A stretch of DNA of 64,000 nt from a virus, in the IMG/VR virus record IMGVR_UViG_3300031994_000007; one strand, 5' to 3'. How positions within the stretch are numbered: the first letter of the stretch is position 1; the number at the start of each line of letters is the position of its first letter. The notes under the pieces are model-generated. The model ran no database searches. It was not told where the DNA came from and saw nothing but the letters and a program-made list of their open reading frames with translations. The translations under genes and the position numbers were made by a program. Of this stretch, positions 32,399-53,694 are shown in pieces.

Positions 32399-32551
32399 TG
32401 GACTAAAACTCCTTTCTCTCTATAACATTATATATAAAAAAGAAAAACGGATTATTACCCATTGTAAAGAATAATAATCCGTTTATAAAAATCATATTCT
32501 TCTATTAATAAATAATAAATATATTAATAGAATTAATTTAATTAGGCCATT

Positions 32552-34324: not shown

Positions 34325-34412
34325 AATATAAACTCCTAAAAAAAAAATAAGGAGAGAAATATTTATATATCTCTCTCCTTTAATTTAATTAACCATTAGC
34401 GTTTTCAATTCT

Positions 34413-35447
34413 CTAACTAAGTAAATCCTCGTGAGGATCAACACCAGTTGTAACACCATCAACTGCATAGACACCATTAGGTGTAGCACCACGGTGGAGC
34501 TCTTGAGCACTTTCTTCTTCAATGATTTGAACAACAGCAAGAACTTTCTTACTATGATCAAAACGAGTGTAATCAGGGAATGCATCCATAGTGAAAGTAA
34601 AGCTTGATGGATCACCAGAAGATGCCATAGTAAATGTAAAGTTAGATTGAATCTTGCAGTTAGGAATTATGAATTCAGCAGGCATATCTACACCAGCTTC
34701 ATTACGGAAGAGGGTAGAAGCTTCAAGATAGAAGTTACCACCAAATTTATCGGGGGTAATTTCAATTTGTTGTGCAGCTGCTTCACGAGCTACATAGAAA
34801 TCAACAAGAACACTATCAAACTTAATATCATCAATTTGACCAATCTTATATCCAACATTATCATTACCGGTATGAGTATCATCATAACAATTATGCTCAG
34901 CAATAGTAATAACATATTTTCCATTTTCATCAGGAGTAATTGCTCCATGAACTGGAATGTAAGGCTCAGTTACGATAGCGCCATCACGCATAAACATAAC
35001 ATAAGCAAAGTTCTCACCCTTATTTTCTGGTAAATAAGGTTCCTAAGATAATGGAATTGTAACTGAAGAACTAGTACTATTACCTTCAGCGATAGAAGAT
35101 TTTAAAACATCACCAGCATCAATAGTTTCTGTAACATGTTGATAAATTGGTTTCCCAGCTGTAGCAGTTACAAGACCAGCACCAGAAAGAATCATAAATC
35201 CTTCTGGAGAAATAAGAGCATCTTCCATAGTGAAAGTTACAGTTCTTTCACCTTCCCATGCTACTAAACGAGCATTACCACGTCCACCTTGGGCATATAC
35301 TGTAGTAGCTGCACCCTCGAGACTAGAAGTTTTTAAAGTATCAAAATAAATAACCGGTTCATTTTTATAGAAAATTTTATTGCCAACTTGCATACGGTTC
35401 TTTGCACGAAGAACTACATCACAAATCTCACGTACACCAAACTTCAT
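34413..35447 (-). CDS. putative major tail protein (344 aa; a single in-frame TAG at 35043)
   Basis: Two track ORFs (35043..35447 and 34413..34997) are in the same frame, separated by one TAG. Position upstream of chaperone/TMP. GC noticeably higher than neighbours and nearly TAG-free, which suggests high expression. Confidence 0.45.
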
Positions 35448-35466
35448 AATGTGTTTTCCTCCTTAA

Positions 35467-35997
35467 TTAATTATGAATATTTTTCATCCAATTGTCGGGC
35501 TTAGAGTCTGGTTTCCCGCCGGCCAAACGGCTACGGATATCTAAATCCCAATTAATCCATAAATGGTATCGTTCAATTAAATCATATAATTGAAACATTG
35601 TTAAATTTATCAATTCGTGCAAAGGCTAATATAAAGCCACTGCTAAAATTGATAAATACTAACTTAAAACACTCGCATTCTTTGCACCTGACTCAGCGGC
35701 AATTCGTTCTCGTCCTCGCTATAATTTTCTTGCAATTTCTTGAGCCTTTGCCCCACCAGGATTAAATGCTTGCTAATCCATAGGACCATTACTAACGCAA
35801 AAAATCTAACGCAATATTATCTATAAATCTTCAAAATTCTCAACATCTACAATAATATTCTCTCCCTATCCATCGTTTGGACGAAATAATAAAGAATTTG
35901 GAGTAAATAACACCTAATATTTAGGAAATAATAATAATAAAACCTATTGTACAGCCTACTTTTTATCTTGCGCTTTGGTTTCTTGCATTATTTTCAT
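35467..35997 (-). CDS. hypothetical protein (176 aa) with about 11 in-frame TAG (~6% of codons)
   Basis: ATG 35997 and TAA 35467 are in frame. The translation reads coherently only if TAG is sense ('...VLS*YLSILAVALY*PLHELI...'). Confidence 0.45.
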
Positions 35998-36166
35998 AAA
36001 TATTTGAAAATTATTTATTGTTGATAGAAGATTTTTGTCCTAAACAAACATAGTTTTATATAAAGAAAGACATTGAGCTCCAGTAAAATATACTTGCTCA
36101 CCAAGCATAGAAATTTCTTTAATTGAAGGCTAATGAACCACTAATTGGCAAGCTGGAATTGGGATA

Positions 36167-36808
36167 TCACTCCCGCACATTAAGGCTAGCCTATAATCCA
36201 TTAGGATATTCCTTTTCCTACTCTTTCTATGCCAAAATCATTTTTTTATATTCTTGTTCAAACTATTCTTGCTCATTCGGATTAGGCATTCTCTTTTTAT
36301 CTTCTTCTCCATGATAAGTTCTATACATTAAACATAATCCAGCAAATTCATCATTTAAAATAATCTAATTTGCTCCTAAAAATTCAATTTTCCCAATACC
36401 AGTTAATTTCTACTAATTAAGCATTGAATCAATTTCAGCTGCAATACGATACGGACGTAAATTATAGTCTTTTAATTGCCATTGATCAAAATGACAAATA
36501 ATATCAAATTCAATAATATTATCTCTAAATTCAGGATTCTCTGATTCGACAAAATTATCAAAACTAATAATAATATAATTCAATACGCTTTTATCTATAT
36601 ATAACTTAGGAACATTTTTAATTTCTTTGCCAAACATTTTAATTTTTTCATTATCAGAAAGATTTGGCTATTCAAGAGCGTCTCTTGTAGTACGACATAA
36701 TAATTTACATAATCTGTCATTGCTTAAAAACTTATCTATTAGTAATCTCATATCTTTATTAATAGATAAAAAACTACTTTTTGGAGGATGATAATTTTCA
36801 ATTTTCAT
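36167..36808 (-). CDS. hypothetical head-tail joining region protein (213 aa)
   Basis: RBS AGGAGAAAG before ATG 36808. Frame followed codon by codon through 9 TAGs to TGA at 36167. Confidence 0.4.
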
Positions 36809-36836
36809 ACTCTTTCTCCTTTTACTCTTATTTCAA

Positions 36837-37967
36837 TTAAAACAATGATTCAACAACAATTGTTTTTGAGAAATTTTTATCATGGCCAATTTCTTTATTT
36901 CCATACCATAAAGTAAATTGTCCACTATAACTACTATTCCATTTAATTTTAATTCCAGGAATACCTTTTTCTGTTTTAAACTTTTCTAATAATACAGGAA
37001 CACGCGGTCCATCTATATACCAATCACCATTGCTATTTTTATCAGCATTTACAAAATATTGATATTCAATTTTTGGTTTAATAAATGTTGGACCAATAAT
37101 ATCTTCTTTTCGATTAATTTCAGGTTCTATATTCTTTTTAATATAAGCTCCTACTAATCCATCCTAAATATTATCTTCAGTCTCATTAGCAAAGTATTCA
37201 ACAGCTGTAATTTCAAAAATCCCTTTTGTACTAATTGAATCAGTTGCTTCTACTCTCCAACATATATTATTATCTGGAGAATCAGCATCTTTTAAATAAA
37301 ATTTTTTATATCTTTGAAACTATTTCATAACCTATTCATTTTTCGGTAATAAAATATGTAGACTATGATTTGGTTCATCAATACTAATACCGTGTTTCTA
37401 AATAAAATTGATTTTTGTTTCTACTGGGCCTCTAATTGCTGCATATGTGCTCTATTCATTTCCATCTTCATCCAGCCAATTAATTTCATAATCACAACGA
37501 CGAATTTCAGCTCTGAAATAAGCAATTTCATCTAAATCCTATAGAGTAATTAACCAATAACTATTGGTACGACACCACTCAAATATATCGCCAACTTCAA
37601 AACCGTGCTCAAATCCAATAGAAATAATTTTGTCATCATAATCAAATTTATTTTTGTCAGGGTTGATAAGTGCTCGCACCGGAGCCGAATGTTCAGGCCC
37701 GTGCTCTAAATTTTTTACTCCTTGGATTTTTTTTACCCAAGCTCCTTGATAAGAATACAATGTTGCTTTATCTAATGACTTTCTTTTATCCCGAATCATT
37801 CGTTCCTATTGCGGGAAGCCTCCTCTATAACGCAACTAGTCAGCTATCGTATTGGCGCCTTCTACTGTGTCTTTGTAATATTTATGAGGTTCTAAATTCC
37901 CAAGTCTTGCCCCCATTAATTTCATAGCTAAATTAGCGCCAATACCAAAAGAATCATTTTTATTCAT
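36837..37967 (-). CDS. hypothetical virion protein (376 aa)
   Basis: ATG 37967. Same frame as fragment 37539..37799. TAA 36837. Confidence 0.4.
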
Positions 37968-38182
37968 TCTTTTGTATCTCCATTAAACTCATTAATTAAA
38001 TTAATGCATTCAAATACTGTTTTTCTATAAATAGAAAAATCTACATCTACTACACGCAATCCCTCTAATTTAGATAAAAGCTATAAAAAACATGAATTAT
38101 GAAGAAAAATTTGATCTTTCCCAGCAATATCAATAATTACTGTTTCTAACTATCTATCCCAGTCTTCCCCATTCTCCCTCAT
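37964..38182 (-). CDS. small hypothetical protein (>=72 aa; start uncertain)
   Basis: ORF ending TGA 37964 overlaps the next ATG (ATGA). The first in-frame ATG is at 38182. Confidence 0.25.
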
Positions 38183-38271
38183 AGGAATTAACTTCCAAAG
38201 CTAATTAGTTAATCTAATAACTTCTTTTTTTATATCTTCTTCTCTAAAAGCAAATTTATATTTACTTGAAA

Positions 38272-38856
38272 TCAATAATATACACCATGACCCAAAGCAT
38301 TTTTCCAATTAGACTAATATCTTTGGTCCTCTCTATTGATCTTGCGGCGTTTATATAAACGCTACATATGATGAGATTGACGCTGACATTCTGACAATAA
38401 AGCTAATAATTTCTATAAATGATTAGCCTATGATGTCATTTTAAAATCAGCGCCACTATATTTCATGCGTGTACTTTCGATAGATGTTACCTGTCGTTGA
38501 ACCCAAGCAATCATCATTAAAATCGCTAAAATATTAATTTCCTCTGAATTTAAATCAGAGGAAAAAGTAGATTTTTCAATTAATGCTAATGGAGGTCTTC
38601 CAAAATCATTTTCATCAATAGTATCGTCCCATAGAACACCAATTAAAAAATCATCTTCAGTTACTTCATTTTCTGGCTTAATTTCTTGATCTATAGTATA
38701 ATCATATAAATTACATCTTGGAAATTCAAAACCAGGAATAGCATCTATTAACATTTTTCTTAAATCTTTAATAGTATCCTATGGAGTTAATTCAACATAC
38801 ATGTCATCAGTAATTTTACCAAGAAAGCGGTTATAAATATCTGTGAATTTAGTCAC
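38272..38856 (-). CDS. hypothetical protein (194 aa, GTG start)
   Basis: AAGGAGG 8 nt before GTG 38856. Frame traced through TAGs at 38428, 38413, 38362, 38314 to TGA 38272. Confidence 0.4.
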
Positions 38857-38877
38857 AAAATACGCCTCCTTCTTTAA

Positions 38878-39429
38878 TTACCCCTAATTAACAACCTTAT
38901 AATTAGTTTGAGTTCTACGACCAGTTACTGGAGTATCAATAGCTTTTTCGACAGCCTTTTCAGTTTTATCGTCAACTTCTGTACCAGAATTAGCAATCGC
39001 TTTATCAACATCAAAACCGGTCTTTTTCTTTAAAGCCGCACGTTTTTCAAAGTCAGTTAAAGGTAATTCTACAGCAAACTTTTTAACTAATTCCAAGACG
39101 CCCTCTGGAGCATAGTCTAAACAATCTAAAAAAGCTGGTAAAGTTCCAGTCTTTAAAAGCTCAATAATCTGCGCTTCTGACATATAATATTCTGGTTCAA
39201 CATTAAGTCCAAGACTTTTAGGGACGCCTTCACTCTAAATCTATAAAAAATTAATCATCATCTCGCGGCCACCTGGCTGATAACTTAAATGCAATAATTC
39301 TTCATAAGAAATACGCTTTGTCTCACCAGGAGTAAAACGTCTTACAATATTATCTTCTGGAATTGTATATTTTACAATACCAGCACTACGATTTTTTACA
39401 TTATAAAAATATTTTCTTTGTTCTACCAT
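38878..39429 (-). CDS. hypothetical head completion / connector-region protein (183 aa)
   Basis: RBS AAAAGGAGA before ATG 39429. Fragments 39241 and 38884 in the same frame. TAGs at 39241, 39232, 38884. TAA 38878. Confidence 0.45.
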
Positions 39430-39465
39430 TTTTAATAAATCTCCTTTTACTCATAATAAAAAATA

Positions 39466-39494
39466 GGAGAGCGGGAGATTTACTCCCTCTCCCC
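39466..39494 (-). terminator. intrinsic terminator after major capsid gene
   Basis: On the minus strand GGGGAGAGGGAG-loop-CTCCCGCTCTCC followed by TATTTTTT. Confidence 0.55.
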
Positions 39495-39527
39495 TTTATC
39501 TCAAAAATTATTTAATTAATTTTTAAA

Positions 39528-40751
39528 TTATGGATTAGTTGTGCCGCCTTGGGAAGGAGTTGTATTTTCTCCGCCTTGTGCAGGAGTGGTATTTCCACTA
39601 TTAGTACCGCTATCAGCACTAGAACCATCCTCATTCACAGCACCATCAAATTGACCATCTTTACGGCCATCATAAGTAATTACATTACCAGTAACTCCAT
39701 TAAAGTTCCAAGTATCCATTTGTCCCATAAGAGAAGTGTCAACATAGCAACAAATATCATTAGTTAACATAGCAACTACGCCAACCTTACGATATACATG
39801 AATTTCTTTACTCCAAGTACCACGATTATCGTCTTCACGTACAAGAGTATTACCCTCAAAGGCAATCTTAACAGGCTTGCTATTAGCTCCAGCAGGAATA
39901 ATCCAACAATAACCTGGATCAATAACCTTACGGCTATTAGTTTCATCTTCAAAGCCTTGATCAAGAATAGTTACAGTATGACCTTTATAATTAGCAAGAC
40001 GACCTTTTTCCCAAAGTTCTTGCTTCATACCATCAGTATAACGCCAAGCTTCTTGAGGAATCATTTTAACAGCAAATTCATAAGTACAATAAATAGCAGG
40101 AGTACCATAAGCACTTGCAATATAAATTAAACGATCAAACTCAGTTTCATCAAAACCATTAAAAGCAACACGATTTGCTGGAGGAAGTTGATTAATAGAA
40201 GCTTTAAGAGCATGAGCAACTTCTTTTGCAATTAATTCTTCCATACCCTCGTAAATAATACGAGTTACTTCAGCAAAATCAACACGACCATCAAGGAACT
40301 CTTCAAATCCAATTTGAGCAGCTCCGCCAATAGCACTAGTGCGAACTTCGAAAGCCTCTTCAGCTTTACCAAGCTTAAAGACTTCATATACACCAGCAAG
40401 ACCAACACGAGTAATGAATTGTTTTGCACGGTTATTTGAATTGAGCTTACGACGGAAAATAGGTTTATCACCTTGACCAAAGGTCTTTACTTCAGCAAAT
40501 TGCATATAGGTTTCAGTAACCTTACGTGGAAGCACTTCATCAAGAGTTTGTTCAATAAGAGTAAAAATAGTATTTTTATTTTCACGATATGCAGCATTAG
40601 TGCCACAAAGTTCATTGAGTTCTTGGCGAAGAGTTTCATTTAAAACATCATAACTAAGATTCTGTCCATTAAAACTATAAGAAGTAGGAGCAGAAGCATT
40701 AGCTTTAGCTGTAATCTTCATTAATTGAAGTAAGTTATTAAAATCCAACAT
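39528..40751 (-). CDS. putative major capsid protein (407 aa; no in-frame TAG; ~45% GC)
   Basis: Uninterrupted ORF with RBS AAGAAAGGAGAAAG. Located after scaffold and decoration genes (SPP1/lambda-like order). Followed by a strong terminator. Compositionally distinct from TAG-rich neighbours. Confidence 0.5.
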   Translation of the reverse strand: MLDFNNLLQLMKITAKANASAPTSYSFNGQNLSYDVLNETLRQELNELCGTNAAYRENKNTIFTLIEQTLDEVLPRKVTETYMQFAEVKTFGQGDKPIFRRKLNSNNRAKQFITRVGLAGVYEVFKLGKAEEAFEVRTSAIGGAAQIGFEEFLDGRVDFAEVTRIIYEGMEELIAKEVAHALKASINQLPPANRVAFNGFDETEFDRLIYIASAYGTPAIYCTYEFAVKMIPQEAWRYTDGMKQELWEKGRLANYKGHTVTILDQGFEDETNSRKVIDPGYCWIIPAGANSKPVKIAFEGNTLVREDDNRGTWSKEIHVYRKVGVVAMLTNDICCYVDTSLMGQMDTWNFNGVTGNVITYDGRKDGQFDGAVNEDGSSADSGTNSGNTTPAQGGENTTPSQGGTTNP

Positions 40752-40772
40752 TATCTTCTTTCTCCTTTCTTA

Positions 40773-41597
40773 TTATTGAATACGCATTAATTTTACGCCT
40801 GGTTGATGATCTGGCATAGTATAAACTTTAACAACTTGCCATACCATATCAGATGCAGTTGGAGTTGCTTTCTTAGTAAGAATACCCTTATTGTTCTTAT
40901 CAGGAACAAGTTTATCTTTAAGAGCTACAGTATTATCGGCAATCATATTTGTAGTCATAATATCGCCAACATGAGTCTTAACAAGACGTGGAACCATAGT
41001 AGTTCCTTCTGGCATTAATTGTTCGGTGTAAGGTCCAACAATATGGAATGGATCTTCATTGTAATGAAGTTCATACATATCAGGAGCAGCAGTTACATCA
41101 TCAACTGGGAATGACTTTGCATTATCGCCTTCACCAAAAGTAACTTTACCATTAGCAAATTTAATGCTACCATTTTTTGCGTCAACACCATTGCCATTGT
41201 AGTAACGAGATTGTCTATCCCACATTTCATCAGGTTGAAGATTACGATCCTTATCATAACCACCACCAAATGGGCTATATACACGAGCTTGATAATTATC
41301 CTTAATCATTGCGAACTCAGCATCAATTTGATGATCGCGATAAAGTTTAATTTCATTATATACTAATAACCATTCGCCAGGACCAGTAAAGTCTACAACG
41401 CCCTCAGCATAGTCATACTTTGCAAATTGACCATTTTCAAGAATTTGAATATCAGCAGCGGCTGGGAGTTGAGCATATACCTCTTTAGTAGCTTCACCAG
41501 AGAGGTGGTTAGCTTCAACTTGACCGTATCCATAGCCATTAGTCTTAATATATCCAGCTTGGCTTTCAATATTTTTCTTTAAGAAATCACTAAGCAT
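40773..41597 (-). CDS. putative head decoration / abundant capsid-associated protein (274 aa; no in-frame TAG)
   Basis: Uninterrupted ORF. RBS GGAGGA. Lies between the scaffold and major capsid genes. Confidence 0.35.
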   Translation of the reverse strand: MLSDFLKKNIESQAGYIKTNGYGYGQVEANHLSGEATKEVYAQLPAAADIQILENGQFAKYDYAEGVVDFTGPGEWLLVYNEIKLYRDHQIDAEFAMIKDNYQARVYSPFGGGYDKDRNLQPDEMWDRQSRYYNGNGVDAKNGSIKFANGKVTFGEGDNAKSFPVDDVTAAPDMYELHYNEDPFHIVGPYTEQLMPEGTTMVPRLVKTHVGDIMTTNMIADNTVALKDKLVPDKNNKGILTKKATPTASDMVWQVVKVYTMPDHQPGVKLMRIQ

Positions 41598-41612
41598 TTT
41601 ATATTATCCTCC

Positions 41613-43226
41613 TCAATCAAAATTTCCTTCATTTTTAACTTCAATAGCACGAGCAACCCAAGCGGGCATATTTGCATAAGCATCATCTGTAGTGCTATCA
41701 AGATTATAGGTAGTAGTTTTAACTTCTTCTTCTTTCTTTTCAGAGTCATTTAAATCAAAACTTACTTTATTACGTACACAAATTACTGATAATTTAGCTT
41801 CAATTTCATCAAGGCTATATTTATCAATATTATCTACGCAATCTTTCTTTTGCTCACTATTAAGCATAAAGAAAGAATCAATTAATGCTTGTTTCTTTTC
41901 TTTATCAATACTATTCTTAAAATCACACAATTCTTTATTTTCATTAACTAATCGTGTAATAGTAGTATTTAATTCATTTACTTGAGCTTCAAGAGCAGTA
42001 TATTTATTTAATAACTCTTGATATTCAACTACTTCATCAAGACTATATTTAGTCTTGTTCTTTTTCTTTTCATCTTCTAATTCATCATTATTAGATTTTT
42101 TTTCATCGGCAGGGGTTTCTTCTTTTTTAGGGTCTTCTTTAGGAGACTATGAGTCTTCCTTCTTTTCAGGCTTTTTCTTCTCTTCAGTCTATTCTTCTTT
42201 AGATTTCTTTTCTTCTTCATCATTCTTTTTCTGTTTATATTCAATCTCAAAAGAATTTATATCTTCAAGAGTGAATTGAGAATTATCAAAAGAATCAGAA
42301 GAAAATTGAATAAGTTCGTCAGCAGGAATAAATTCTTCTGTGTCGGTTAAAGAGAAATTTAAACGAGAATAAGTAGAATCTTCACGATTTTGAAGAACTG
42401 CAAATTTTTGACCTTCAGTTTCCTCATAAACACCAACTAAACGATAAATTAATTCATCATTAGTTTTATAATTATTCCACATATAATCGTAAATTGCGTC
42501 CCAAAGACGACCACCAATTTCAACAGCATAAGTATTAAACACTGGTGTTCCTCCTTTATCATTACTCAAAATTTCTTTCATTGCCTCAATTAATGAGAAC
42601 AATCTTTGCTTAAAATTATCTTCAAAAGAAAATTGTACTTTAGAAATAGATGCTCCTTCAAAGCAGGGTTCAACATCTTCTCCTAAAACACAAAGCTTTG
42701 ACATAATTGCTTCATTAATAATGAAAAACTACGGCTTTCCATTATTATCTTTTGTCCAAAATGCATCTAAAGTATTATCATCTAATTCCATAGATTGATT
42801 ATTTCCATGTTCTATAATTCTTTGAGACTCTGGATATTGTCCAGTCCAAATATATCCCTCAGTTACTAAATATTCATGAGGTACTCCATCATCTTCAAAC
42901 CACTAAAACCAAACTTTAGCATCCATTGAAACAAAGCCATAAGGTCTAGTAGTATCTTTAATCTATATAGTCCCATTTGAAATTTCAATTGTTCTATTAT
43001 GTTCTTCAAAATCTTTTTTTTCAGAATTATAATAACCAACGATTGGGCAACCTGGAATAGAATTAGCGAATTCTTTAGCTACTTCTTTTGTAATTACACT
43101 TCTATTACGATTAGCCTATTGGCCTACATAGCATACTTTTATTTGACATTTTGAAATAAGAGGATTAACAGGTTTTATGTCTAATACTTCAATAGGCATA
43201 TCTACCATGTTTATACTAACATGCAT
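41613..43226 (-). CDS. putative capsid scaffolding protein (537 aa)
   Basis: RBS GAAAGGAGGA before ATG 43226. Acidic/Lys-rich coiled-coil C-terminal half. Position between portal and capsid genes. In-frame TAGs. TGA 41613. Confidence 0.45.
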
Positions 43227-43241: not shown

Positions 43242-44873
43242 TTAGCTCATAGCTTCTTTATTTTTAATAGTTTTTTCAGATTTTTCATCATCTGGTTTTT
43301 CTGGTCTACCACCAGTACTTTTACTATCTGATATTTTTTGAGTTTTATTAGAATTATTTTGATTTTTTGTGCCCAAAATATCTTGTCCACTAACAGTATT
43401 ACTACTCAATGGAGGAATCATCAAGTTAGGCAAATCAAGTATTTCATTTTCAAAATATGCTAAATTAACAACTGAACTCTATGAATGACCAAGAGCAACC
43501 ATAGGTAAAAATTTAGACTAACCATTAGAAGTTAAATCTTTATACATTTTTGAAATATCTTTATAATTATACTAAGTGGTTTCAAGCATCACAAAAGTAA
43601 AATTAAACTTTTTATTACTACTTTTTTTATCTACTAATTTATTAAAAAATATATCAAACTATAAAATTAAATTGCGCATAGTAGATTCATCATCTAAAAT
43701 AGATTTTTCTAATGATAAATTGCCATCAGTATTAAATAAATTTCTTGAAATACCAAGAGCATCATATAAAGCTCTTTCAACTTTTGCTAAATCATCAGTT
43801 TTAGTAGTAGTATTCTTATCACTAATATCAATAGATTGTACATCAGCAAAAGTAGTTACTACATCAATACCGATAGCTTTACTTAACATAGCAACCATAG
43901 TATTATGTATATCTCTTGCTTCATCAACATCAAATATTAAATCACCATTTTTATCCATAGGTAATTTCTGTACTAAAATTTTTAAAAGCTGTTGCATCTA
44001 TTTCTTTCTATCTAATTCCTAAGCAGCATCTAAATCAATAATAGCAGGAATTGCATTAAAGAAAATAGGGAAATCACTTCCATTAATATTAAATTTAACA
44101 GTACTGCCTGGATCTAAAAGATACCAACCTTGGCGTCCTTGATAAGTCCCAGTATTATTATCTGTCCAATCTATTTCAGTATTTGTAAGTTTACCCTATT
44201 TATAGAGCATATATCCTTTTGCAAATTCTTCTGGGAACATTCTTATAACTTTTATTCTATAAGCTGGATCAACAAATTTATCATCAAAAAATGCCATATT
44301 AAATTCAATGACTGGAGCACCTTCAACATTGAATCTGGAACGACAATATTCTAATGGAAGTTCTTGCAATACAACGCCTTTTGCACTATTAATTATATAT
44401 CCATAATAACAACCATGTTTTACGACTTTAAGTGCTATATCGCCACAAATTTTTTTAATATAAGAATTATCTAAATATGATAAAATCTTTACATATTCTT
44501 CTAATACTTTATCAGTTTTAGCATTCTCTTTAACATTTTCTGGATAAATATACCAATCATATCTATAAAGAAATGCAAAATAATTACAAACTGTCTAATA
44601 AATACCACTAGCATTATAAAAAAAATCTGAAATAATTCTCATTTTTTTATAATCCTTCTTAATAATAGTTGCTAATATTTCTTTTTTATTACAAAAAGGT
44701 AATTTAGCTTCTTTTAATGTACCTAAATCTAATAAAGCATCTTCTAATACTTTTACTCCAACTTTTATTTTTCCATAATCAGTAATATTTTCATTATTAT
44801 CTCCTGTGGGAAAACCAAAATCAAATAAATCAAAGCCTTTATTATGGATAGCTTCTTGTCTTTCAATATCCAA
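43242..44873 (-). CDS. putative portal protein (543 aa, TTG start)
   Basis: GGAGGA 8 nt before TTG 44873. Fragments 44595 and 43242 in the same frame. Size and position (downstream of the large terminase) typical of a portal. TAA 43242. Confidence 0.5.
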
Positions 44874-44887
44874 AATACTATCCTCCT

Positions 44888-45244
44888 TTAATAGCCAGCT
44901 TTATGCATTATATAATCATAAGTAATTAAATTTTCTTCAGTATAAGGAATTTCAATTAATTTTAAATCATGTAATGCACAAAATCTACGCTTCTTATTAT
45001 CATTATATTTTTGCTAATAAAATCCTTTTTTCCCACCAAATTTCGCAGTAGGTTCATAATGCTATTTTCCTTGATATTCAATAATAAAATCAATTTTTCC
45101 ATCATCATCAAATATTACGAAATCAAATCTAAGTGGACGGCCATTATCACTTCGGAGTTCTGGAAAAATATATTCTTCTTCAAAAGTTAATCCAGCTTCA
45201 TCTAAAATTTCTTCAATCTTTATTTCACCTCTACTAGATCGCAT
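44888..45244 (-). CDS. small PD-(D/E)XK-nuclease-like protein (118 aa)
   Basis: Motif 'RFDFVIFDDDGKIDFIIEYQGKQH' resembles the Vsr/DUF559-type restriction-endonuclease fold. One in-frame TAG at 45062. Inserted between terminase and portal. Confidence 0.35.
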
Positions 45245-45258
45245 TTTCCTTTCCCCCT

Positions 45259-47016
45259 TTAACTTATAAACATCATATCAGTAACTTTAAATTTTTTCTT
45301 TTTCTTTTTACTATCTTCTTCAATTTTTATATAATATAAACCATATTCTGCCGCAGAAAATTTATCTTTCTTAATTCCTTTATTAGCCTATTTTAAAATA
45401 ATATTAACCCCTTCATTCTCTTCTCTAAGATTCATCATTTCCTCTTTAAGAATGGAAGTTAAAGTAAATGGTTTTAAATATTCTGCCCTCTTTTCAGGAG
45501 TCATTTTCTATCCAGCTTTTGTATTTAATAATTTAGCTTTAGCTACTCTTTCATCAATTAATAATTTAATTTTTCCAGCATTTAACATTGTCTAAAAATT
45601 AGCATGAGCTTCAGTATTTTCTGGAGCGTGAGCTTTCATTAAATACATAGCTTCTTCTTCTGTCTCATTAGTATGAAATTTTTTATATTCATCAATAGCG
45701 TCAGCCTAAGTTCCCCCATAAACTCCGAAGTCGGGAAAATCTTCTTGCGTTTCATTATCATGCTATGGTTTAACCATATAATCAACAAGACCCATACCAA
45801 TACCATTAGCATCAATAACAATTCTACGAGCTTTATATTTATAATAAAGTCTTTTAACTTTAATAGCCTAATCCTCCATATGGGTATCTGCCATTGTATA
45901 AATATTTACTAATGATTTAATTGATGGCCCCATTGACTATGGAGTTACTTTCCAAACACAAACAACACTATCACATCCTTTTCTACCAACGTCCATAGAA
46001 AGGATATAATAACTTTTTGTTGACGAACGACCAGATGATTCATATTCTGGTTGATTTAATATTCTATGTTTATCAAAAGTTTCTCCATTAAAGAAAGCAT
46101 TTTCTGCTGTACCGCTCCATTTACTTTCATATTCACGATCAAATGAAGCTTCATTATAAGTACCATCTCGTTGTAAATCTTGTAGAAATGTTCTATCTAA
46201 TAATTTCATTAATACTGGTATTCGCCAAGTACCACCCATAATAAATGCTTTTTCTGGTTCAGTTATCATCCAAACTAATAACTAAATTAATTTATCATAG
46301 GCAAAAGTCCCTTTCCAACCAGCAGTAGTAACATATATCTAACTTTTATTTAATGTTTCTTCTGGATATGACTATCCATCCATTGCCAATCTTGAAACGT
46401 TCATTGTAGGAATAATAACTTCTGAAAGAATTTGTCCATCAACACCAACACATTCTTCTATTAATCCGCCATGACGACGTTTACCACGAGACTTTTCTGT
46501 AGCGGCAATATTATCAAAATATGAACCATTTTTAAACATAAAAATACAATAATCTTTACTTATTCGTGTTTTACCAGGCCGATGATCTAATTCTTTATCT
46601 AAAGCTGGAATTAATCTACAAAGTTCATCTACTTTTTCTTTAATAATACCAGCAGCCTATTCTTTACCACCAGAAGTAACAAATAATTTTGCTCTTGGAT
46701 AAAGAATACAACGAATCATTAAAACTAACACAGAAAGAAATGATTTTGAATATGCACGTGGGAATACCATATAAACATATTTATACCGCATAGCCGCACG
46801 TAAAAATACTCTTTGATAAAAGAAAAAATGTAATCCATCATCTGGAATTTTACCATCTAATCCAGTCTATAAAAAATCAACAAACATATCAGGATATTCA
46901 CGCCAATAACTTACATACTATCTAATGTAAGGTTTTAATGGTGTAATACGCTCTTCTGATATACCAATTTTTCTAGTACTAGATGATGATAAATTTAGTA
47001 AATCTTGTAATGCCAT
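45259..47016 (-). CDS. terL: terminase large subunit (586 codons)
   Basis: Walker-A-like 'PRAYSKSFLS', nuclease-domain-like 'IVIDANGIGMGLVDYM'. Start and stop in frame with fragment 45937..46269. About 14 in-frame TAG. TAA 45259. Confidence 0.7.
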
Positions 47017-48701: not shown

Positions 48702-49760
48702 TCATTTTTTCTTATTTCGGCAGCATTTACAGATGGAATAAAAGCCATCCTTACTGGTTTTATTTTTACTAAAATATTTGTTATGCGCCAATTTAACTTG
48801 ACCGCATCTACTGCATCGTTTAAATTTTCCGGGTTTTACTTGGGTATAATACCAATTTAAATATTCATCCTCAGCAGCGGATGCTATTAATGTTGGAATT
48901 TTACGACGCCATAAACTGGAAATATATTCAACGCTATGTTTTATACCGAATTCTTGTTGGAGAGCTATTTGAATATCTATATTTTGCATTCCATCAATTT
49001 TATATTCAACAAGTCGTTTATACAATGGATAAGCTTCTAATGCTTTGTCGCATATCTATTCAAAATCATAAATTAAATACCACATATCATTTTCAAAATA
49101 ACCCCAGCTATCTTCTTTTAGTTTTGAATAATTACATAAAATACCAGAACAAACAGCTGGGTCTATTAAAGTAATTCCTTTAGAAATTAAATTATCATCA
49201 TTATCAATTTCTATATCTCCTTCTAATGGAATAACATTTTTTGAATGAGTAATTTTTGTAAGAGTAATTGGTCTACGATATGCATTTTTAATTATATATT
49301 GATCTTTACGCAGTTCAATTAAAGTAGATTTAATAATATAAGCCTATCTACCTTCTGCTGTTTTTAATTTAGTTTCCCAAATATTTATGGCTTCTTTTAA
49401 TTGTTGTAAAGGTTGTATTTCTTCTATATCTTTTTTTGTTATTGTTATTTTTGGCTAAAATATAATATTTTTATTTTCTGTTATTAAATTATAAATTCCG
49501 TCTTCGCCATTTTCAAATTGGGACACAAGCCCTTCAAAAGAGGTTTCTCGTTTATTTACAGTAGTCATACGGTTGTCAGTTAAAATTTTTCGTTCTTTAC
49601 GCTCTTGTTTCTCCATACATAAAATGAGATAATCAGCCATAATTTCTAAGTATTTTTCTCCTGGGTCTGGATTTTCTTGTAAAATTTGTTTGATTAATTC
49701 ATTTCTATCTTCTGGGTTGTCAAGCGTATAGTCTAATTTAATCAAATTATCAACCTCCAC
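48702..49760 (-). CDS. hypothetical protein with C-terminal zinc ribbon (352 aa, GTG start, 3 in-frame TAG)
   Basis: First gene of the minus-strand late operon. C-term 'CSRCGQVKLAHNKYFSKNKTSKDGFYSICKCC'. TGA 48702. Confidence 0.4.
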
Positions 49761-49781: not shown

Positions 49782-49811
49782 ATTATACTAAAAAATTTTT
49801 TGTTTGACAAA
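49782..49811 (-). promoter_or_regulatory. minus-strand promoter for late operon (TTGTCA-18-TATAAT)
   Basis: Its -35 overlaps the -35 of the divergent plus-strand promoter within the palindromic TTTGTTTGACAAATTT. Confidence 0.45.
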
Positions 49812-50885: not shown

Positions 50886-51215
50886 AAAATGACAAATTAA
50901 AAAAATAAATTCTTTAATACACTAAATCGTAAAAAAGCCAGTCAAATACTAAATTAACATTATTCTTTAACACATTAAAGTAATAAAAAACCAAGAGAGA
51001 TAATAGTAACAATGTATCATCAAATAATTGCGCAATAGGCGAGATAGATAAAGAAGCTTCACAAAGCAAGGCAGAGACATTCGTCAAGCCTATACGTTAG
51101 CATAACACAACAAGACTATGAATAAACAATAAGACAAAAGAGTAGATAAACAACAAACTAAATACGATAGTAATAGTAATACATTAATTATTATAATAAT
51201 TACAAAAGAAAAACA

Positions 51216-51244
51216 TTGACAAACAGCACCACTTGTGGTATAAT
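51216..51244 (+). promoter_or_regulatory. consensus promoter with the -10 region flanked by a 9-bp inverted repeat (GCACCACTT/AAGTGGTGC); drives a short non-coding leader
   Basis: TTGACA-17-TATAAT. No RBS or ORF before the next promoter. Downstream small hairpins and a T-run (51250-51300). Confidence 0.5.
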
Positions 51245-51318
51245 AGAAGTGGTGCCTTGCGATAAGGTAAGCGGCGACCTTTGTTAAAAAAATAACAATC
51301 TTTTTTATAAAAAAACTC

Positions 51319-51347
51319 TTGACATTTGCCCGGGCTTGTGATATTAT
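51319..51347 (+). promoter_or_regulatory. class A promoter (TTGACA-17-TATTAT, GCCCGGGC box in spacer)
   Basis: Sequence consensus. Confidence 0.6.
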
Positions 51348-51396
51348 AATACCAGAAAGAGAGAGATAAATAAATTAAAAGAAAGAGGTAAACAAA

Positions 51397-51624
51397 ATGA
51401 AAGAGATTAAGTACGCAATTCACAATAACAAGAATGAGGTTGTTGATTGGGCTAACACCGAAGCAGAAGCAGAAGCACTTGTCAAGAAAGCCGCTAAAAG
51501 AGGCTGGAAACGCACCATTCACAAAATCGAATGGACGATCAATGAAAACCCTGAAATCTGGGAACTCGAAGGTGGCAAGGAAGATCCCACCAAGGTGGAA
51601 TGGGGCAATAATGAAGAGTGGTAA
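51397..51624 (+). CDS. hypothetical early protein (75 aa)
   Basis: RBS AGAGG. TAA stop embedded in terminator hairpin GAAGAGTGG-TAAAAA-CCACTCTTC+T7. Confidence 0.65.
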   Translation: MKEIKYAIHNNKNEVVDWANTEAEAEALVKKAAKRGWKRTIHKIEWTINENPEIWELEGGKEDPTKVEWGNNEEW

Positions 51625-51655
51625 AAACCACTCTTCTTTTTTTATAAAAAAACTC

Positions 51656-51684
51656 TTGACAGATTGGCACATCCATGTTATAAT
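51656..51684 (+). promoter_or_regulatory. promoter TTGACA-17-TATAAT driving structured RNA copy 1
   Basis: Sequence consensus. Confidence 0.6.
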
Positions 51685-51690
51685 ACAATC

Positions 51691-51738
51691 ACAGGTTGAG
51701 GGAAACCACACGCGGGTAGTCGAGGGGAGAGACTAACT
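51691..51738 (+). ncRNA. repeated structured RNA element, copy 1
   Basis: ACAGGTTGAGGGAAACCACACGCGGGTAGTCGAGGGGAGAGACTAACT. Covarying helices across the 7 copies. Confidence 0.45.
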
Positions 51739-51781
51739 AAATAGTAACAAAAGAAAAACAAAAAGTTTCTAAAAATAGTTG

Positions 51782-51810
51782 TTGACAAATAACATCCTTT
51801 GTGCTATACT
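51782..51810 (+). promoter_or_regulatory. promoter TTGACA-17-TATACT
   Basis: Sequence consensus. Confidence 0.55.
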
Positions 51811-51846
51811 ATAATCACAAAGGGAAGAGAAAAGGAGATAACAAAG

Positions 51847-52155
51847 ATGATTAACATTAGAACTATCAACAAACTCACTGAGAATGATGGACTTACTCTT
51901 AAAAATGGTAAGCTTATCACTTACAAAAGCGGTTGGCAGGTTGCCACCGAGGGCGTAGAGTGCCACACCGCACGGGAAGCCATTAACGCGGTTAAGGCTT
52001 ACGGCGGTAACTGTGGGGTGTGGTTCGCTGGTGGTATCTACTACATCGACAAAAGCCACAGAGTCAATACCAAGCGCGAGGCGCTTGAAATTGGCAAAGC
52101 TCATAATCAAATCTCTGTTCTGGGCTGGCGTAAAATGGTTTTAGCGTACTGCTAA
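51847..52155 (+). CDS. hypothetical early protein (102 aa)
   Basis: RBS AAAGGAGATAACAAAG-ATG. 14-bp-stem terminator (AAAATGGTTTTAGC/GCTAAAACCATTTT) overlapping the stop. Confidence 0.65.
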   Translation: MINIRTINKLTENDGLTLKNGKLITYKSGWQVATEGVECHTAREAINAVKAYGGNCGVWFAGGIYYIDKSHRVNTKREALEIGKAHNQISVLGWRKMVLAYC

Positions 52156-52183
52156 AACCATTTTATTTTTTATAAAAAAATAC

Positions 52184-52212
52184 TTGACAAGTCAATCTAT
52201 CTATGCTATAAT
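52184..52212 (+). promoter_or_regulatory. promoter TTGACA-17-TATAAT driving structured RNA copy 2
   Basis: Sequence consensus. Confidence 0.6.
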
Positions 52213-52218
52213 ACAATC

Positions 52219-52268
52219 ACAGGTTGAGGGAAACCGCACTCGGGCAGGAGAGGGGAAGGACTGACTTA
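52219..52268 (+). ncRNA. repeated structured RNA element, copy 2
   Basis: ACAGGTTGAGGGAAACCGCACTCGGGCAGGAGAGGGGAAGGACTGACTT. Confidence 0.45.
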
Positions 52269-52318
52269 AAAGTAACAAAAGAATGACAAAAAATTTTTCT
52301 ATTTTTTTTGAAAAAATG

Positions 52319-52347
52319 CTTGACAAATCGCCCGGGCTTTGCTATAA
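52319..52347 (+). promoter_or_regulatory. class A promoter TTGACA-aatcGCCCGGGCtttgc-TATAAT
   Basis: Sequence consensus. Confidence 0.6.
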
Positions 52348-52380
52348 TACAATCAGAAAGAACAAGGGAGGACAAAAAAA

Positions 52381-52782
52381 ATGACTTACTACTTCGACAT
52401 GGATGGCGTTCTGGCTGACTTCCACTCTACTTACACTGAGCGCGCACAGGCTTTGAGCCGCGACTATCTTGCCAATCTCGCCCCGTTCGTTGAGAATGTC
52501 AAGACTGTCCGGAACCTCATTGCTCACGGTGAAAAGGTTTACATTCTCACCAAGGCCGCTAACGATGATGCCAAGGCTGGCAAAATTGACTGGCTGGCAA
52601 AGTACATCCCGGAAATTACGGCAGAACAGTTTATTTGCATCGTAGGCTCTGGTCGCAAGGTTGATTACATTCGTGAAGCTGGCATTCTTGTGGATGATGA
52701 TATTAAGAACATTCGGCAGTGGGTCAAAGGTGGCTTTGAGGGCTATCTGGTAGAGACTAAAGGTGCCACGGTTATTCTCTAA
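52381..52782 (+). CDS. HAD-superfamily 5'(3')-deoxyribonucleotidase-like protein (133 aa)
   Basis: N-terminal 'YYFDMDGVLADF' (DxDGV HAD motif I) and NT5C-like layout. RBS GGGAGGA. Paralog at 63036. Followed by hairpin terminator 52763-52800. Confidence 0.65.
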   Translation: MTYYFDMDGVLADFHSTYTERAQALSRDYLANLAPFVENVKTVRNLIAHGEKVYILTKAANDDAKAGKIDWLAKYIPEITAEQFICIVGSGRKVDYIREAGILVDDDIKNIRQWVKGGFEGYLVETKGATVIL

Positions 52783-52916
52783 CCGTGGCGCTTTCTATTT
52801 TGCCCGGGCAAAATCGCCAGCTCCGAAAGGCCCCGGACTTCACCACGCTAAAGTGGTGAAGTAAAAAACGCGAATGATTGTTAAACAAATAACAATAAAA
52901 AATGTCCCGAAACTAC

Positions 52917-52945
52917 TTGACAATAGGCACAATGTGTGGTAGAAT
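52917..52945 (+). promoter_or_regulatory. promoter TTGACA-17-TAGAAT
   Basis: Sequence consensus. Confidence 0.5.
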
Positions 52946-52977
52946 ACAGTCACCAAGAGGAAAAGAGGTAGACAGCA

Positions 52978-53382: not shown

Positions 53383-53407
53383 CAAGTTCAAGCCCTTATG
53401 TTATAAT
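53379..53407 (+). promoter_or_regulatory. class B promoter (TTGACA embedded in GGGGCTTGA...TCAAGCCC hairpin)-17-TATAAT
   Basis: Sequence consensus. Confidence 0.6.
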
Positions 53408-53436
53408 ACAATCACAAAAGAAAAGGAGATAAAAAA

Positions 53437-53607
53437 ATGTTTAATGTTTACTACATCCGCAATGGGTATGAACTCAACGCTAAATTTGAAAAAAGAGGAA
53501 GTGCTCTTTTATTTGCTCATAATTTTGTATCTATGTTAGGCGGAGATTATGCCGCTGTTACTGATACAGAAACAAATAAAACTATACAAGTTTATAGCAG
53601 ATACTAA
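53437..53607 (+). CDS. hypothetical early protein (56 aa)
   Basis: RBS AAAGGAGATAAAAAA-ATG. Terminator AGGCTGA-TTCAGCCT+T6 at 53608-53640. Confidence 0.6.
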   Translation: MFNVYYIRNGYELNAKFEKRGSALLFAHNFVSMLGGDYAAVTDTETNKTIQVYSRY

Positions 53608-53659
53608 AAAAGGCTGATTCAGCCTTTTTTATTTACATTAAAAAAAATGAAAAAAGTGC

Positions 53660-53688: not shown

Positions 53689-53694
53689 ACAATC

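What the first reader, a model, noticed from the sequence alone, without database searches (positions are those of the whole stretch)
34413..41597. Highly expressed virion genes are compositionally distinct and TAG-free
The putative major capsid (39528-40751), decoration (40773-41597) and major tail (34413-35447) genes are ~38-45% GC and contain 0-1 in-frame TAG. Flanking genes are ~27% GC with up to 6% TAG codons. This suggests selection against suppressor-dependent codons in the most abundant proteins, or separate horizontal origin. A strong terminator follows the capsid gene.
Basis: seen in the sequence. Interest (0 to 1): 0.55.

Follow-up and report, generated by a model that had tools for sequence, protein, structure and literature searches.

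The report
Abundant virion proteins avoid recoded TAG
In this phage, which reads the stop codon TAG as glutamine, the proteins made in the largest amounts (capsid, tail tube, a neighbouring head protein and probably the scaffold) almost never use TAG, most likely because the recoded codon is costly to translate.

Summary
The window is a TAG-to-Gln (code 15) siphophage distantly related to phAss-1.

- **TAG use in the window.** TAG supplies 49% of glutamine codons in the other late genes. It supplies 0/16 in the major capsid gene, 0/13 in the 274-aa gene upstream of it, and 2/11 in the tail-tube gene. The tail-tube value is not significant on its own.
- **GC content.** These genes are 36.6-36.9% GC, not 38-45%. 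The excess is at codon positions 1 and 2, reflecting Gly/Ala/Val/Pro-rich proteins. GC3 matches the neighbouring genes, so horizontal origin is not supported.
- **Relatives.** In 43 recoded relatives the same three families have 1-2% TAG among Gln codons, against 21-54% in ten of the other twelve families and 6-7% in two intermediate ones. The difference holds in 28 of 28 lineages.
- **Rivals excluded.** Protein conservation and glutamine content do not explain the pattern.
- **Expression marks.** These genes show a general codon bias that also occurs in standard-code relatives. Conserved intrinsic terminators follow only the capsid and tail-tube genes.
- **Within-gene control.** Inside the 537-aa gene upstream, TAG use falls from 40% to about 5% at a conserved internal ribosome-binding site and start codon. 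This looks like a nested scaffold gene.

Best reading: selection against TAG that scales with how much protein is made. The "decoration" label for the 274-aa protein is unverified.

The parts
39528..40751 (-). Major capsid protein gene, 407 aa. 0 TAG among 16 Gln codons; GC 36.6%, GC1 0.54, GC3 0.16.
   Evidence: Counts. It is 49% identical to the phAss-1 capsid gene and matches capsid genes annotated in Bacillus phages Kirov and Thrax3. Best PHROG is phrog_4088. Pooled over the fetched loci, TAG is 7 of 631 Gln codons.
40773..41597 (-). 0 TAG among 13 Gln codons.
   Evidence: Counts. There are 7060 homologues at E <= 0.001, and the 120 listed are full length. No Pfam or PDB match, and no significant fold match except an uncharacterised protein of phage ctxMM9; the model has pLDDT 60. 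Pooled over the fetched loci, TAG is 11 of 489 Gln codons.
34389..35447 (-). Tail tube (major tail) protein gene, 352 aa. 2 TAG (35043-35045 and 34413-34415) among 11 Gln codons.
   Evidence: Best PHROG is phrog_2729, a virion structural protein. Homologues are annotated as tail tube or major tail protein. The top 14 PDB fold matches are all siphophage tail tube proteins, E 2.6e-5 to 5e-3. Pooled over the fetched loci, TAG is 3 of 264 Gln codons. Codon 135 is Gln in the family consensus.
39456..39494 (-). Intrinsic terminator directly after the capsid gene: GGGGAGAGGGAG-UAAAU-CUCCCGCUCUCC followed by UAUUUUUUAU.
   Evidence: z = -3.6. A hairpin plus T-run is present after the capsid gene in 30 of 43 relatives, and after none of seven other late genes.
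34340..34380 (-). Intrinsic terminator directly after the tail tube gene: 14-bp stem followed by a run of about 10 T.
   Evidence: Conserved in 14 of 28 relatives.
41613..43226 (-). 537-aa head-maturation gene: an N-terminal domain (phrog_3313) and a K/E-rich coiled-coil C-terminal half. All 6 TAGs lie in codons 37-360.
   Evidence: In the window plus 30 recoded relatives, TAG/Gln is 0.40 in codons 1-220, 0.09 in 221-360 and 0.03 in 361-537 (p = 2e-19). No such positional gradient exists in other genes.
41613..42557 (-). Inferred nested in-frame gene (scaffold-like, about 309 aa). Ribosome-binding site AAAGGAGG at 42550-42557, GTG start at 42540-42542 (codon 229).
   Evidence: SD pairing energy -12.0 kcal/mol. 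GGAGGA followed 6-9 nt later by GTG or ATG is kept in all 16 distinct sequences, and the residue changes only between Val (GTG) and Met (ATG). The nested product itself is inferred, not shown.
39244..42146 (-). Longest TAG-free coding run in the late region, 920 codons. [quoted passage not shown]
   Evidence: The expected number of gaps this long is 1.5e-6.
43242..47016 (-). Comparison genes: portal (43242-44642, TAG 8/18), a small gene (44888-45244, TAG 2/4) and the large terminase (45259-47016, TAG 13/20). These are low-copy proteins with ordinary TAG use.
   Evidence: The terminase is as conserved as the capsid protein (75% identity each), yet its TAG/Gln is 0.33 against 0.012.

Best explanation
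The window comes from a siphophage whose late genes are written in genetic code 15, where TAG means glutamine. In most late genes TAG and CAA are used about equally and swap freely during evolution. In the proteins needed in hundreds of copies per virion, TAG is removed by selection. These are the major capsid protein, the tail tube protein, the 274-aa head protein encoded next to the capsid gene, and probably a scaffold protein translated from an internal start.

The likely reason is that reading TAG depends on a phage suppressor tRNA. That tRNA is slower, scarcer or in competition with the host release factor. Each TAG therefore costs yield and produces truncated subunits, and the cost grows with the number of copies made. 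TAG avoidance is one part of an ordinary expression-linked codon bias in these genes. Their higher GC is a side effect of an amino-acid make-up rich in Gly, Ala, Val and Pro.

Shown: the codon statistics, their conservation across relatives, the codon bias, the terminators and the switch inside one ORF. Inferred: the copy numbers, the cost of suppression and the nested scaffold product.
For: **Code 15**
- Long-ORF coverage rises from 21% to 91% when TAG is read as sense.
- TAG columns align most often with Gln in three standard-code relatives: 248 of 1075 aligned residues, followed by Lys and Glu.
- No gene ends in TAG.
- The related phage phAss-1 carries tRNA-Sup(CTA) genes (PMC10607447).

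**Avoidance in the window**
- 0/16, 0/13 and 2/11 against 49% elsewhere; pooled p = 8e-9.
- A 920-codon TAG-free run.

**Conservation across relatives**
- TAG/Gln is 0.012, 0.023 and 0.012 in the three families, against 0.21-0.54 in ten others and 0.06-0.07 in two intermediate ones.
- The focal genes are lower than the rest in 28/28, 24/24 and 15/15 lineages when collapsed at 95, 90 and 85% nucleotide identity.
- Nearly every TAG column in other genes is polymorphic with CAA, so turnover is fast.

**Not explained by constraint or glutamine content**
- The terminase is as conserved as the capsid protein but TAG-rich; Spearman rho = -0.08.
- Gln content is 3.1-4.7% in the focal genes, similar to the others.
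- In the window these genes use CAA rather than TAG, so avoidance is not a by-product of preferring CAG.

**Expression proxies**
- AAG/Lys is 0.47 against 0.11 (p = 1e-10). NNC/NNY is 0.15 against 0.07 (p = 8e-6).
- In relatives, CAG, AAG, GAG and NNC are all raised in exactly these families, including in standard-code relatives. Across families, TAG/Gln correlates with these at rho -0.52 to -0.74.
- Terminators follow only the capsid and tail tube genes.
- A 3110-aa tape measure implies a very long tail and hence many tube subunits (inference).

**Control within one mRNA**
- TAG/Gln drops from 0.40 to about 0.05 at a conserved internal ribosome-binding site and GTG/ATG start in the 537-aa gene.
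- There is no general 5'-to-3' gradient in other genes.
Against: - No expression or proteomic data exist for this phage; abundance is inferred from protein identity.
- The 274-aa protein has no assigned function.
- The suppressor tRNA is not in the window or within 10 kb of the capsid gene in relatives. Its supply and timing are therefore unknown.
- A test for release-factor competition was negative. The base after TAG is not distributed differently from the base after other NAG codons in the window (p = 0.13).
- Ribosome-binding-site strength does not separate the focal genes from the others.
- In the window alone the tail tube gene is not significant.
- The window has two TAGs (codons 346 and 360) inside the proposed nested gene.
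- In crAss-like phages a tail tube family is reported to prefer TAG (bioRxiv 10.1101/2021.08.26.457843). The rule is therefore not universal among code-15 phages.
Confidence: 0.7

Rival explanations
1. Timing rather than amount. These proteins are kept TAG-free so that they can be translated before, or independently of, the switch to TAG read-through. Particle building blocks would then accumulate early, while TAG-bearing genes (terminase, portal, tail tip, lysis) wait for the suppressor tRNA.
For: - The early genes contain no TAG at all.
- The published model for recoded phages is temporal gating of late and lysis genes, with integrases avoiding the recoded codon.
- A sigma-factor-like gene at the head of the late block carries 3 TAGs, which suggests gating does operate in this phage.
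Against: - The focal genes sit inside the same closely packed gene strings as TAG-rich genes, with gaps of 15-21 nt, so they are not transcribed earlier.
- The same genes carry a general codon bias that also exists in relatives using the standard code, where no switch exists.
- A few relatives tolerate one TAG in these genes.
- The switch inside one ORF at an internal start is easier to explain by translation level.
- The two models are not mutually exclusive.
Confidence: 0.17
2. Constraint artefact. TAG arises mainly at weakly constrained positions, so well-conserved, compositionally unusual structural proteins simply offer fewer places for it.
For: - TAG columns in other genes are highly variable, and often Lys or Glu in relatives.
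- The focal proteins have a distinct amino-acid composition.
Against: - The terminase (75% identity) and the small 118-aa gene 44888-45244 (77%) are as conserved as the capsid protein (75%) but have TAG/Gln of 0.33-0.35 against 0.012. There is no correlation across 15 families.
- The 274-aa and tail tube proteins are only about 60% conserved yet TAG-free.
- Glutamine codons are as frequent as elsewhere and are simply CAA or CAG.
Confidence: 0.06
3. Separate horizontal origin. The capsid, neighbouring head and tail tube genes were acquired from a higher-GC phage using the standard code and have not yet adapted.
For: - Overall GC is 8 points above the neighbouring genes.
- There are no, or very few, TAG codons in these genes.
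Against: - GC3 is 0.16-0.21, like the late genes (0.14) and unlike anything at higher GC. The excess is at codon positions 1 and 2.
- Order and presence of these genes are conserved in 46 related loci spanning 59-100% capsid identity.
- The pattern would need three separate insertions plus half of a fourth gene.
Confidence: 0.02

Closest known systems
Gene-specific bias in use of recoded stop codons in code-15 and code-4 gut phages (Borges et al., bioRxiv 10.1101/2021.08.26.457843)
   Same: Both concern a TAG-to-Gln phage with early genes in the standard code and late genes recoded. Both score gene families for TAG against CAA/CAG, and in both some families deviate strongly from the genome average.
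   Different: That work reports enrichment in lysis genes and a crAss-like tail tube family, and avoidance in integrases, all read as timing control. The word "capsid" does not occur in the preprint's main text. Here avoidance marks the highest-copy virion proteins, including the tail tube. It goes with general codon bias and changes inside one ORF at an internal start.
Phassvirus group (phAss-1, OQ749652; PMC10607447)
   Same: TAG-to-Gln recoding, siphovirus layout and a tape measure protein of more than 3000 aa. The capsid protein is 49% identical. The paper lists the terminase and tape measure as TAG-containing, and the GenBank capsid CDS is intact under the standard code.
   Different: This window is far from that genus. 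The capsid region is at most 67% identical at the DNA level, and only to an unannotated 12-kb fragment. GC is about 27-30% against 44.5%. Its closest named relative by the 274-aa protein is ctxMM9. The paper does not analyse TAG avoidance.
Translational selection on codon usage in highly expressed genes (classical codon bias; general knowledge)
   Same: A small set of the most highly expressed genes shows shifted synonymous usage (AAG, CAG, GAG, NNC) against a strong mutational AT bias. The shift is conserved across relatives.
   Different: The disfavoured codon here is a reassigned stop codon, decoded only by a phage-supplied suppressor tRNA. The penalty may therefore include premature termination, not only slow decoding.
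Nested protease/scaffold genes such as lambda C/Nu3 (general knowledge)
   Same: An in-frame internal ribosome-binding site and start codon lie within a head-maturation gene just upstream of the capsid gene. The C-terminal part is coiled-coil rich.
   Different: No protease family match was obtained for the N-terminal domain (phrog_3313 has no function). The nested product is inferred from sequence conservation and codon statistics only.

Membership tests
Genetic code 15 (TAG = Gln) phage | Coding density recovers when TAG, and only TAG, is read as sense | tested here: met
   Long-ORF coverage is 21% with the standard code, 91% with TAG as sense and 28% with TGA as sense. The same holds in most of the 46 related loci.
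Genetic code 15 (TAG = Gln) phage | In-frame TAG aligns with glutamine in homologues that use the standard code | tested here: met
   Gln is the commonest partner (248 of 1075 aligned residues, against about 4% background), followed by Lys and Glu. Codon 135 of the tail tube gene is Gln in the family consensus.
Genetic code 15 (TAG = Gln) phage | TAG is not used as a stop codon | tested here: met
   The 26 late genes with a stop codon in the window end in TAA (20) or TGA (6). The 32 early ORFs end in TAA (21) or TGA (11).
Genetic code 15 (TAG = Gln) phage | A suppressor tRNA with anticodon CUA is encoded by the phage | tested here: not met
   There is no tRNA in the 64-kb window or within 10 kb of the capsid gene in 34 related loci. 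The rest of the genome is not available. phAss-1 carries three such tRNAs elsewhere in its genome.
Expression-linked codon selection | The bias is restricted to genes for the most abundant products | tested here: inconclusive
   The genes are the capsid and tail tube genes (identified), a head protein of unknown role, and an inferred scaffold. Copy numbers are inferred from general phage biology, not measured.
Expression-linked codon selection | The same genes are biased at other synonymous codon pairs | tested here: met
   AAG/Lys is 0.47 against 0.11. TTC, TAC and AAC are raised. Across families, rho is -0.52 to -0.74.
Expression-linked codon selection | The bias is maintained across independent lineages despite rapid turnover elsewhere | tested here: met
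   28 of 28 lineages. Nearly all TAG columns are polymorphic.
Expression-linked codon selection | Measured expression level or decoding rate correlates with the bias | not testable with these tools
   There are no transcriptome, proteome or ribosome-profiling data for this uncultured phage.
Siphophage tail tube protein | Homology and fold similarity to solved tail tube proteins | tested here: met
   Homologues are annotated as tail tube or major tail protein, E 1e-15 to 1e-19. The top 14 Foldseek PDB matches are all tail tube proteins, E down to 2.6e-5. TM-scores are low (0.24-0.37) because the model is mediocre, pLDDT 62.
Capsid decoration protein | Similarity in sequence or fold to a known decoration protein | tested here: inconclusive
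   No Pfam, PDB-sequence or significant fold match. The best PDB match is a phage T1 capsid chain at E = 1.2. The model has pLDDT 60.
HK97-fold major capsid protein | Homology to annotated capsid proteins and a position after the portal and maturation genes | tested here: met
   Matches Bacillus phages Kirov and Thrax3, annotated "major capsid protein" (E 4e-8 and 9e-6), and the phAss-1 capsid gene at 49% identity. The gene order is terminase, portal, maturation gene, 274-aa gene, capsid gene. The fold itself was not modelled.
Nested scaffold gene (lambda C/Nu3 type) | A conserved in-frame internal ribosome-binding site and start codon | tested here: met
   GGAGGA followed 6-9 nt later by GTG or ATG in all 16 distinct sequences, with a Val/Met-only substitution.
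Nested scaffold gene (lambda C/Nu3 type) | A separate C-terminal protein product is detected | not testable with these tools
   This needs mass spectrometry or N-terminal sequencing.

The most novel reading that the evidence does not exclude
In this large clade of code-15 phages, decoding of TAG is inherently lossy, so TAG density in a gene (or part of a gene) reads out inversely how much of that protein is made. From sequence alone, the pattern then ranks virion proteins by stoichiometry and reveals hidden nested genes such as the scaffold. It would also mean that recoding carries a measurable fitness cost. That cost would limit where the recoded codon can spread, setting it against the proposed benefit of timing control.
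Probability: 0.4. Interest if true: 0.55.

Novelty: new variant of a known kind. Interest (0 to 1): 0.42.

Why it matters
Stop-codon recoding in gut phages is usually explained as a timer for late and lysis genes. This case shows a second force. Within one late gene block, and even within one ORF, the recoded codon is removed in proportion to the amount of protein made, across dozens of lineages.

If suppression is costly, that cost constrains how recoding evolves. It would also explain why capsid genes of some recoded phages are found intact by standard gene callers. And it would give a sequence-only way to pick out high-copy virion proteins and nested genes in uncultured phages. It also warns against reading local GC differences as horizontal transfer when they lie at codon positions 1 and 2.

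Tried and rejected
- **Release-factor context.** TAG is followed by C more often than CAA is (p = 1e-5). Other NAG codons show the same, so this is a dinucleotide effect and not a TAG-specific signal (window p = 0.13).
- **Ribosome-binding-site strength.** The focal genes have strong sites (-11 to -13 kcal/mol), but so do many low-copy genes.
- **Identity of the 274-aa protein.** Pfam, PHROGs, tblastn against phages, a PDB profile search, an AlphaFold model (pLDDT 60) and Foldseek against PDB and BFVD gave nothing beyond uncharacterised relatives.
- **General 5'-to-3' TAG gradient.** This would be expected if late termination were more wasteful. It is absent.
- **Suppressor tRNA.** None in the window or in related loci. 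Rfam gave nothing.
- **In-window correlations.** TAG/Gln against AAG/Lys or GC3 across all 20 larger genes is not significant (rho -0.19 and -0.08). Only GC at positions 1 and 2 correlates (rho -0.62). The codon-bias link is clear only for the focal genes and in the pooled relatives.
- **Promoter-proximal RNA element.** I considered a crAss-like identity for the phage (rejected). I also considered that the element is an HDV-like theta ribozyme. Rfam gave no match, and I could not map the element onto that fold by eye. The paper's consensus is given only in a figure.
- **Bookkeeping error.** In some searches the partial gene at the left edge (2-2782) included 47 non-coding codons. This was corrected to 2-2641, with no effect on the conclusions.

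Full report
**What the window is.**
- Genes at 1-49640 all lie on the minus strand and are broken up under the standard code. ORFs of 150 or more codons cover 21% of the window with the standard code. They cover 91% if TAG is read through and 28% if TGA is.
- Translated with TAG as Gln, the block encodes a sigma-factor-like protein, the large terminase, the portal, a 537-aa head-maturation protein, a 274-aa protein and the major capsid protein. Connector-like proteins follow, then a tail tube protein, a 3110-aa tape measure and large tail-tip proteins.
- The capsid protein is 49% identical to that of phAss-1 (OQ749652), a published TAG-to-Gln siphophage with tRNA-Sup(CTA) genes and a tape measure of about 3150 aa.
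- The nearest cultured relatives are standard-code Enterococcus phages (EF1, VRE9, H1).
- No gene in the window ends with TAG.
- In-frame TAG aligns most often with Gln in three relatives that use the standard code.

**Checking the observation.**
- In the 24 other late genes, TAG supplies 329 of 676 glutamine codons (49%), or 2.2% of all codons (328 of 674 after the left-edge gene was corrected).
- The capsid gene has 0/16 and the 274-aa gene 0/13. The tail tube gene has 2/11.
- Against all other genes, Fisher p is 4.6e-5 and 3.2e-4 for the first two, so both survive correction for 27 genes. The tail tube gene gives p = 0.07. Pooled, p = 8e-9.
- The longest TAG-free run of codons is 920, from codon 361 of the 537-aa gene to codon 62 of the gene after the capsid gene. 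The expected number of such runs is 1.5e-6.
The three genes are 36.6-36.9% GC, against a weighted 28.5% for the rest.
The ORF continues to a TAA at 34389.
- The terminator after the capsid gene is real. A second one follows the tail tube gene.

**Where the extra GC comes from.**
- GC1 is 0.54-0.56 against about 0.40, and GC2 is also raised. GC3 is 0.16-0.21 against 0.143.
- The proteins are enriched in Gly, Val, Ala, Pro and Thr and depleted in Leu, Ile, Ser, Lys and Asn.
- At synonymous sites these genes therefore belong with their neighbours.
- The early region beyond about 50 kb has GC3 of 0.43. That is the real compositional break in the window.
- Horizontal origin is therefore not supported.

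**Relatives.**
- A scan of IMG/VR with the capsid protein returned 46 loci with 59-100% capsid identity. 43 of them are TAG-recoded and three are not.
- Pooling orthologues over these loci, TAG as a share of Gln codons is 7/631 for the capsid, 11/489 for the 274-aa protein and 3/264 for the tail tube. In the recoded loci alone these shares are 0.012, 0.023 and 0.012.
- Two further genes are intermediate at 0.06-0.07. The remaining ten families are at 0.21-0.54.
- After collapsing loci into lineages at 95, 90 or 85% capsid nucleotide identity, the focal genes are below the rest in 28/28, 24/24 and 15/15 lineages.
- Almost every TAG column in the other genes is polymorphic with CAA, so TAG and CAA interchange readily.
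- A few relatives carry a single TAG in a focal gene. The codon is disfavoured, not forbidden.
- Database searches found thousands of homologues of the 274-aa and tail tube proteins. All 120 listed in each search align over 94-100% of the query.

**Excluding simple causes.**
- Glutamine is as frequent in the focal proteins (3.1-4.7%) as elsewhere.
- Conservation does not predict TAG use. The terminase and capsid protein are both 75% identical to their orthologues on average, yet have TAG/Gln of 0.33 and 0.012. Across 15 families, rho = -0.08.
- In the window the focal genes use CAA (37 of 38 non-TAG Gln codons). Avoidance is therefore not a side effect of preferring CAG.

**Signs of high expression.**
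- In the window the focal genes use AAG for 47% of lysines against 11% elsewhere (p = 1e-10). They use more TTC, TAC and AAC; pooled NNC is 15% against 7% (p = 8e-6).
- In the relatives the same three families stand apart. CAG among CAA+CAG is 0.60-0.63 against 0.15-0.25. AAG/Lys is 0.55-0.72 against 0.19-0.29. GAG/Glu is 0.38-0.44 against 0.13-0.28. NNC is 0.22-0.31 against 0.13-0.20. The two intermediate genes lie between.
- The standard-code relatives show much the same bias, clearest for the capsid gene and less consistent for Lys codons in the other two. It therefore pre-dates or is independent of recoding.
- A terminator-like hairpin plus T-run follows the capsid gene in 30/43 relatives and the tail tube gene in 14/28. 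It follows none of seven other late genes.
- The 352-aa protein is a tail tube protein by annotated homologues and by fold matches. A 3110-aa tape measure implies a very long tube built from many subunits (inference).

**A control inside one gene.**
- In the 537-aa gene family, TAG/Gln is 0.40 in codons 1-220, 0.09 in 221-360 and 0.03 in 361-537 (p = 2e-19).
- Other genes show no positional trend. In the window the mean relative position is 0.499 for TAG and 0.498 for CAA/CAG.
- At codon 229 the window has AAAGGAGG followed 7 nt later by GTG.
- In all 16 distinct sequences the Gly-Gly pair there is always written GGAGGA. The codon 6-9 nt downstream is GTG or ATG, and never another valine codon.
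- This is the signature of an internal in-frame start. It would yield a separate coiled-coil C-terminal protein of about 309 aa, as in nested protease/scaffold genes.
- A scaffold is needed in far larger amounts than a maturation protease. The same mRNA thus carries a TAG-rich low-output part and a TAG-poor high-output part. That is hard to explain by transcription timing or gene origin.

**Interpretation.**
- The best-supported mechanism is selection against TAG in proportion to translation output. Each TAG probably lowers yield or gives truncated subunits, because it depends on a phage suppressor tRNA.
- Direct evidence for that cost is missing. The suppressor tRNA is not in the window or near the capsid gene in relatives. 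A test for release-factor-sensitive sequence context was negative once other NAG codons were used as controls.
- The main rival is that these proteins must be translatable before the code switch. It remains possible and could act together with the cost model.

**Comparison with the literature.**
- The preprint of Borges et al. tested gene families for bias towards or against recoded stops. It reports enrichment in lysis genes and in a crAss-like tail tube family, and avoidance in integrases. Its main text does not contain the word "capsid".
- The phAss-1 paper notes TAG in the terminase and tape measure genes but does not analyse avoidance.
- Cook et al. found capsid genes identifiable under the standard code in 57% of code-15 genomes. 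That is compatible with frequent, but not universal, TAG-poor capsid genes.
- I found no paper describing copy-number-linked avoidance in this clade, but only open-access texts could be searched.

**Verdict.** The feature is real, conserved and explicable. It is a new variant of gene-specific recoded-codon bias, best understood as codon selection in high-output genes. It is of moderate interest. The horizontal-transfer idea is rejected and the "decoration" label is unverified.

Noticed in passing
window 51200-63600, + strand: An early-gene array. There are 31 near-consensus sigma-70-type promoters (TTGACA, 17 nt, TATAAT, often with an upstream A-tract), all on the + strand in about 12 kb. Most are followed by a strong AAGGAG ribosome-binding site and a small ORF; there are 32 ORFs of 37-153 aa. 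No TAG occurs either in frame or as a stop. GC3 is 0.43 against 0.14 in the late genes. This is the largest compositional break in the window.
   Followed up: partly
window + strand, motif starts 51693, 52221, 53697, 54776, 55446, 57952, 61006; also L048 14187 (+) and L049 (5 copies, - strand): A roughly 30-nt conserved element placed 5-7 nt after the -10 box of a consensus promoter. It is followed not by an ORF but by an A-rich spacer and the next promoter. Its sequence is AGG-NN-GAGGGA-NN-CC-N-CAC-N-N-GGG-N-AG-N-N-GAGGGG. Four variable pairs are perfectly Watson-Crick in 11 distinct copies and imply a pseudoknot. There are 17 double-change cells against 4.7 in shuffles, and 100% of cells are paired. 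There is no Rfam match even at E <= 1. An exact-pattern scan of IMG/VR found it in only two close relatives. Function is unknown; it may be a 5' leader, stabiliser or antiterminator-like RNA. I derived the structure by eye from these same sequences.
   Followed up: partly
window 48702-49640, - strand: The first gene of the late block matches a phage sigma-factor family (phrog_5767, E 1.7e-44). It carries three in-frame TAGs, at codons 62, 99 and 195. It sits behind a sigma-70-like promoter at 49782-49810. A late sigma factor whose own translation needs the suppressor tRNA would gate late transcription on the code switch.
   Followed up: no
window 32445-32484, - strand: A 16-bp terminator-like hairpin with a T-run lies immediately upstream of the ATG of the 3110-aa tape measure gene (32428). 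That start has no detectable ribosome-binding site, +0.7 kcal/mol. This may be attenuation of a protein needed in few copies, or the true start or mode of expression may differ.
   Followed up: no
window 2783-4528, - strand: A 581-aa Gly/Thr/Ser/Asn-rich, fibre-like protein with no PHROG match. It is also TAG-poor (2/20 Gln codons, p = 9e-4) with raised GC1 and GC2. It could be another multi-copy tail or fibre component. It lay outside the fetched relatives, so conservation of the pattern is untested.
   Followed up: no
window 53363-61600, + strand (for example 54486-54510, 56907-56932): In many early promoters the -35 box is embedded in a G+C-rich inverted repeat (GGGGCTTGACAA..CAAGCCCC), or the spacer holds the palindrome GCCCGGGC. 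The terminator of one small gene appears to overlap the promoter of the next.
   Followed up: no
L018, L039, L041 (IMG/VR relatives): Three relatives with 63-71% capsid identity have no in-frame TAG in any of 10 orthologous late genes. They therefore use the standard code, so recoding has been gained or lost within this clade. Their capsid and tail tube genes already show the CAG and NNC preference.
   Followed up: partly
window 44888-45244, - strand: A small 118-aa gene lies between the portal and terminase genes and is conserved in all 46 relatives. A neighbouring feature in Enterococcus phage VRE9_4 is annotated as a homing endonuclease.
   Followed up: no
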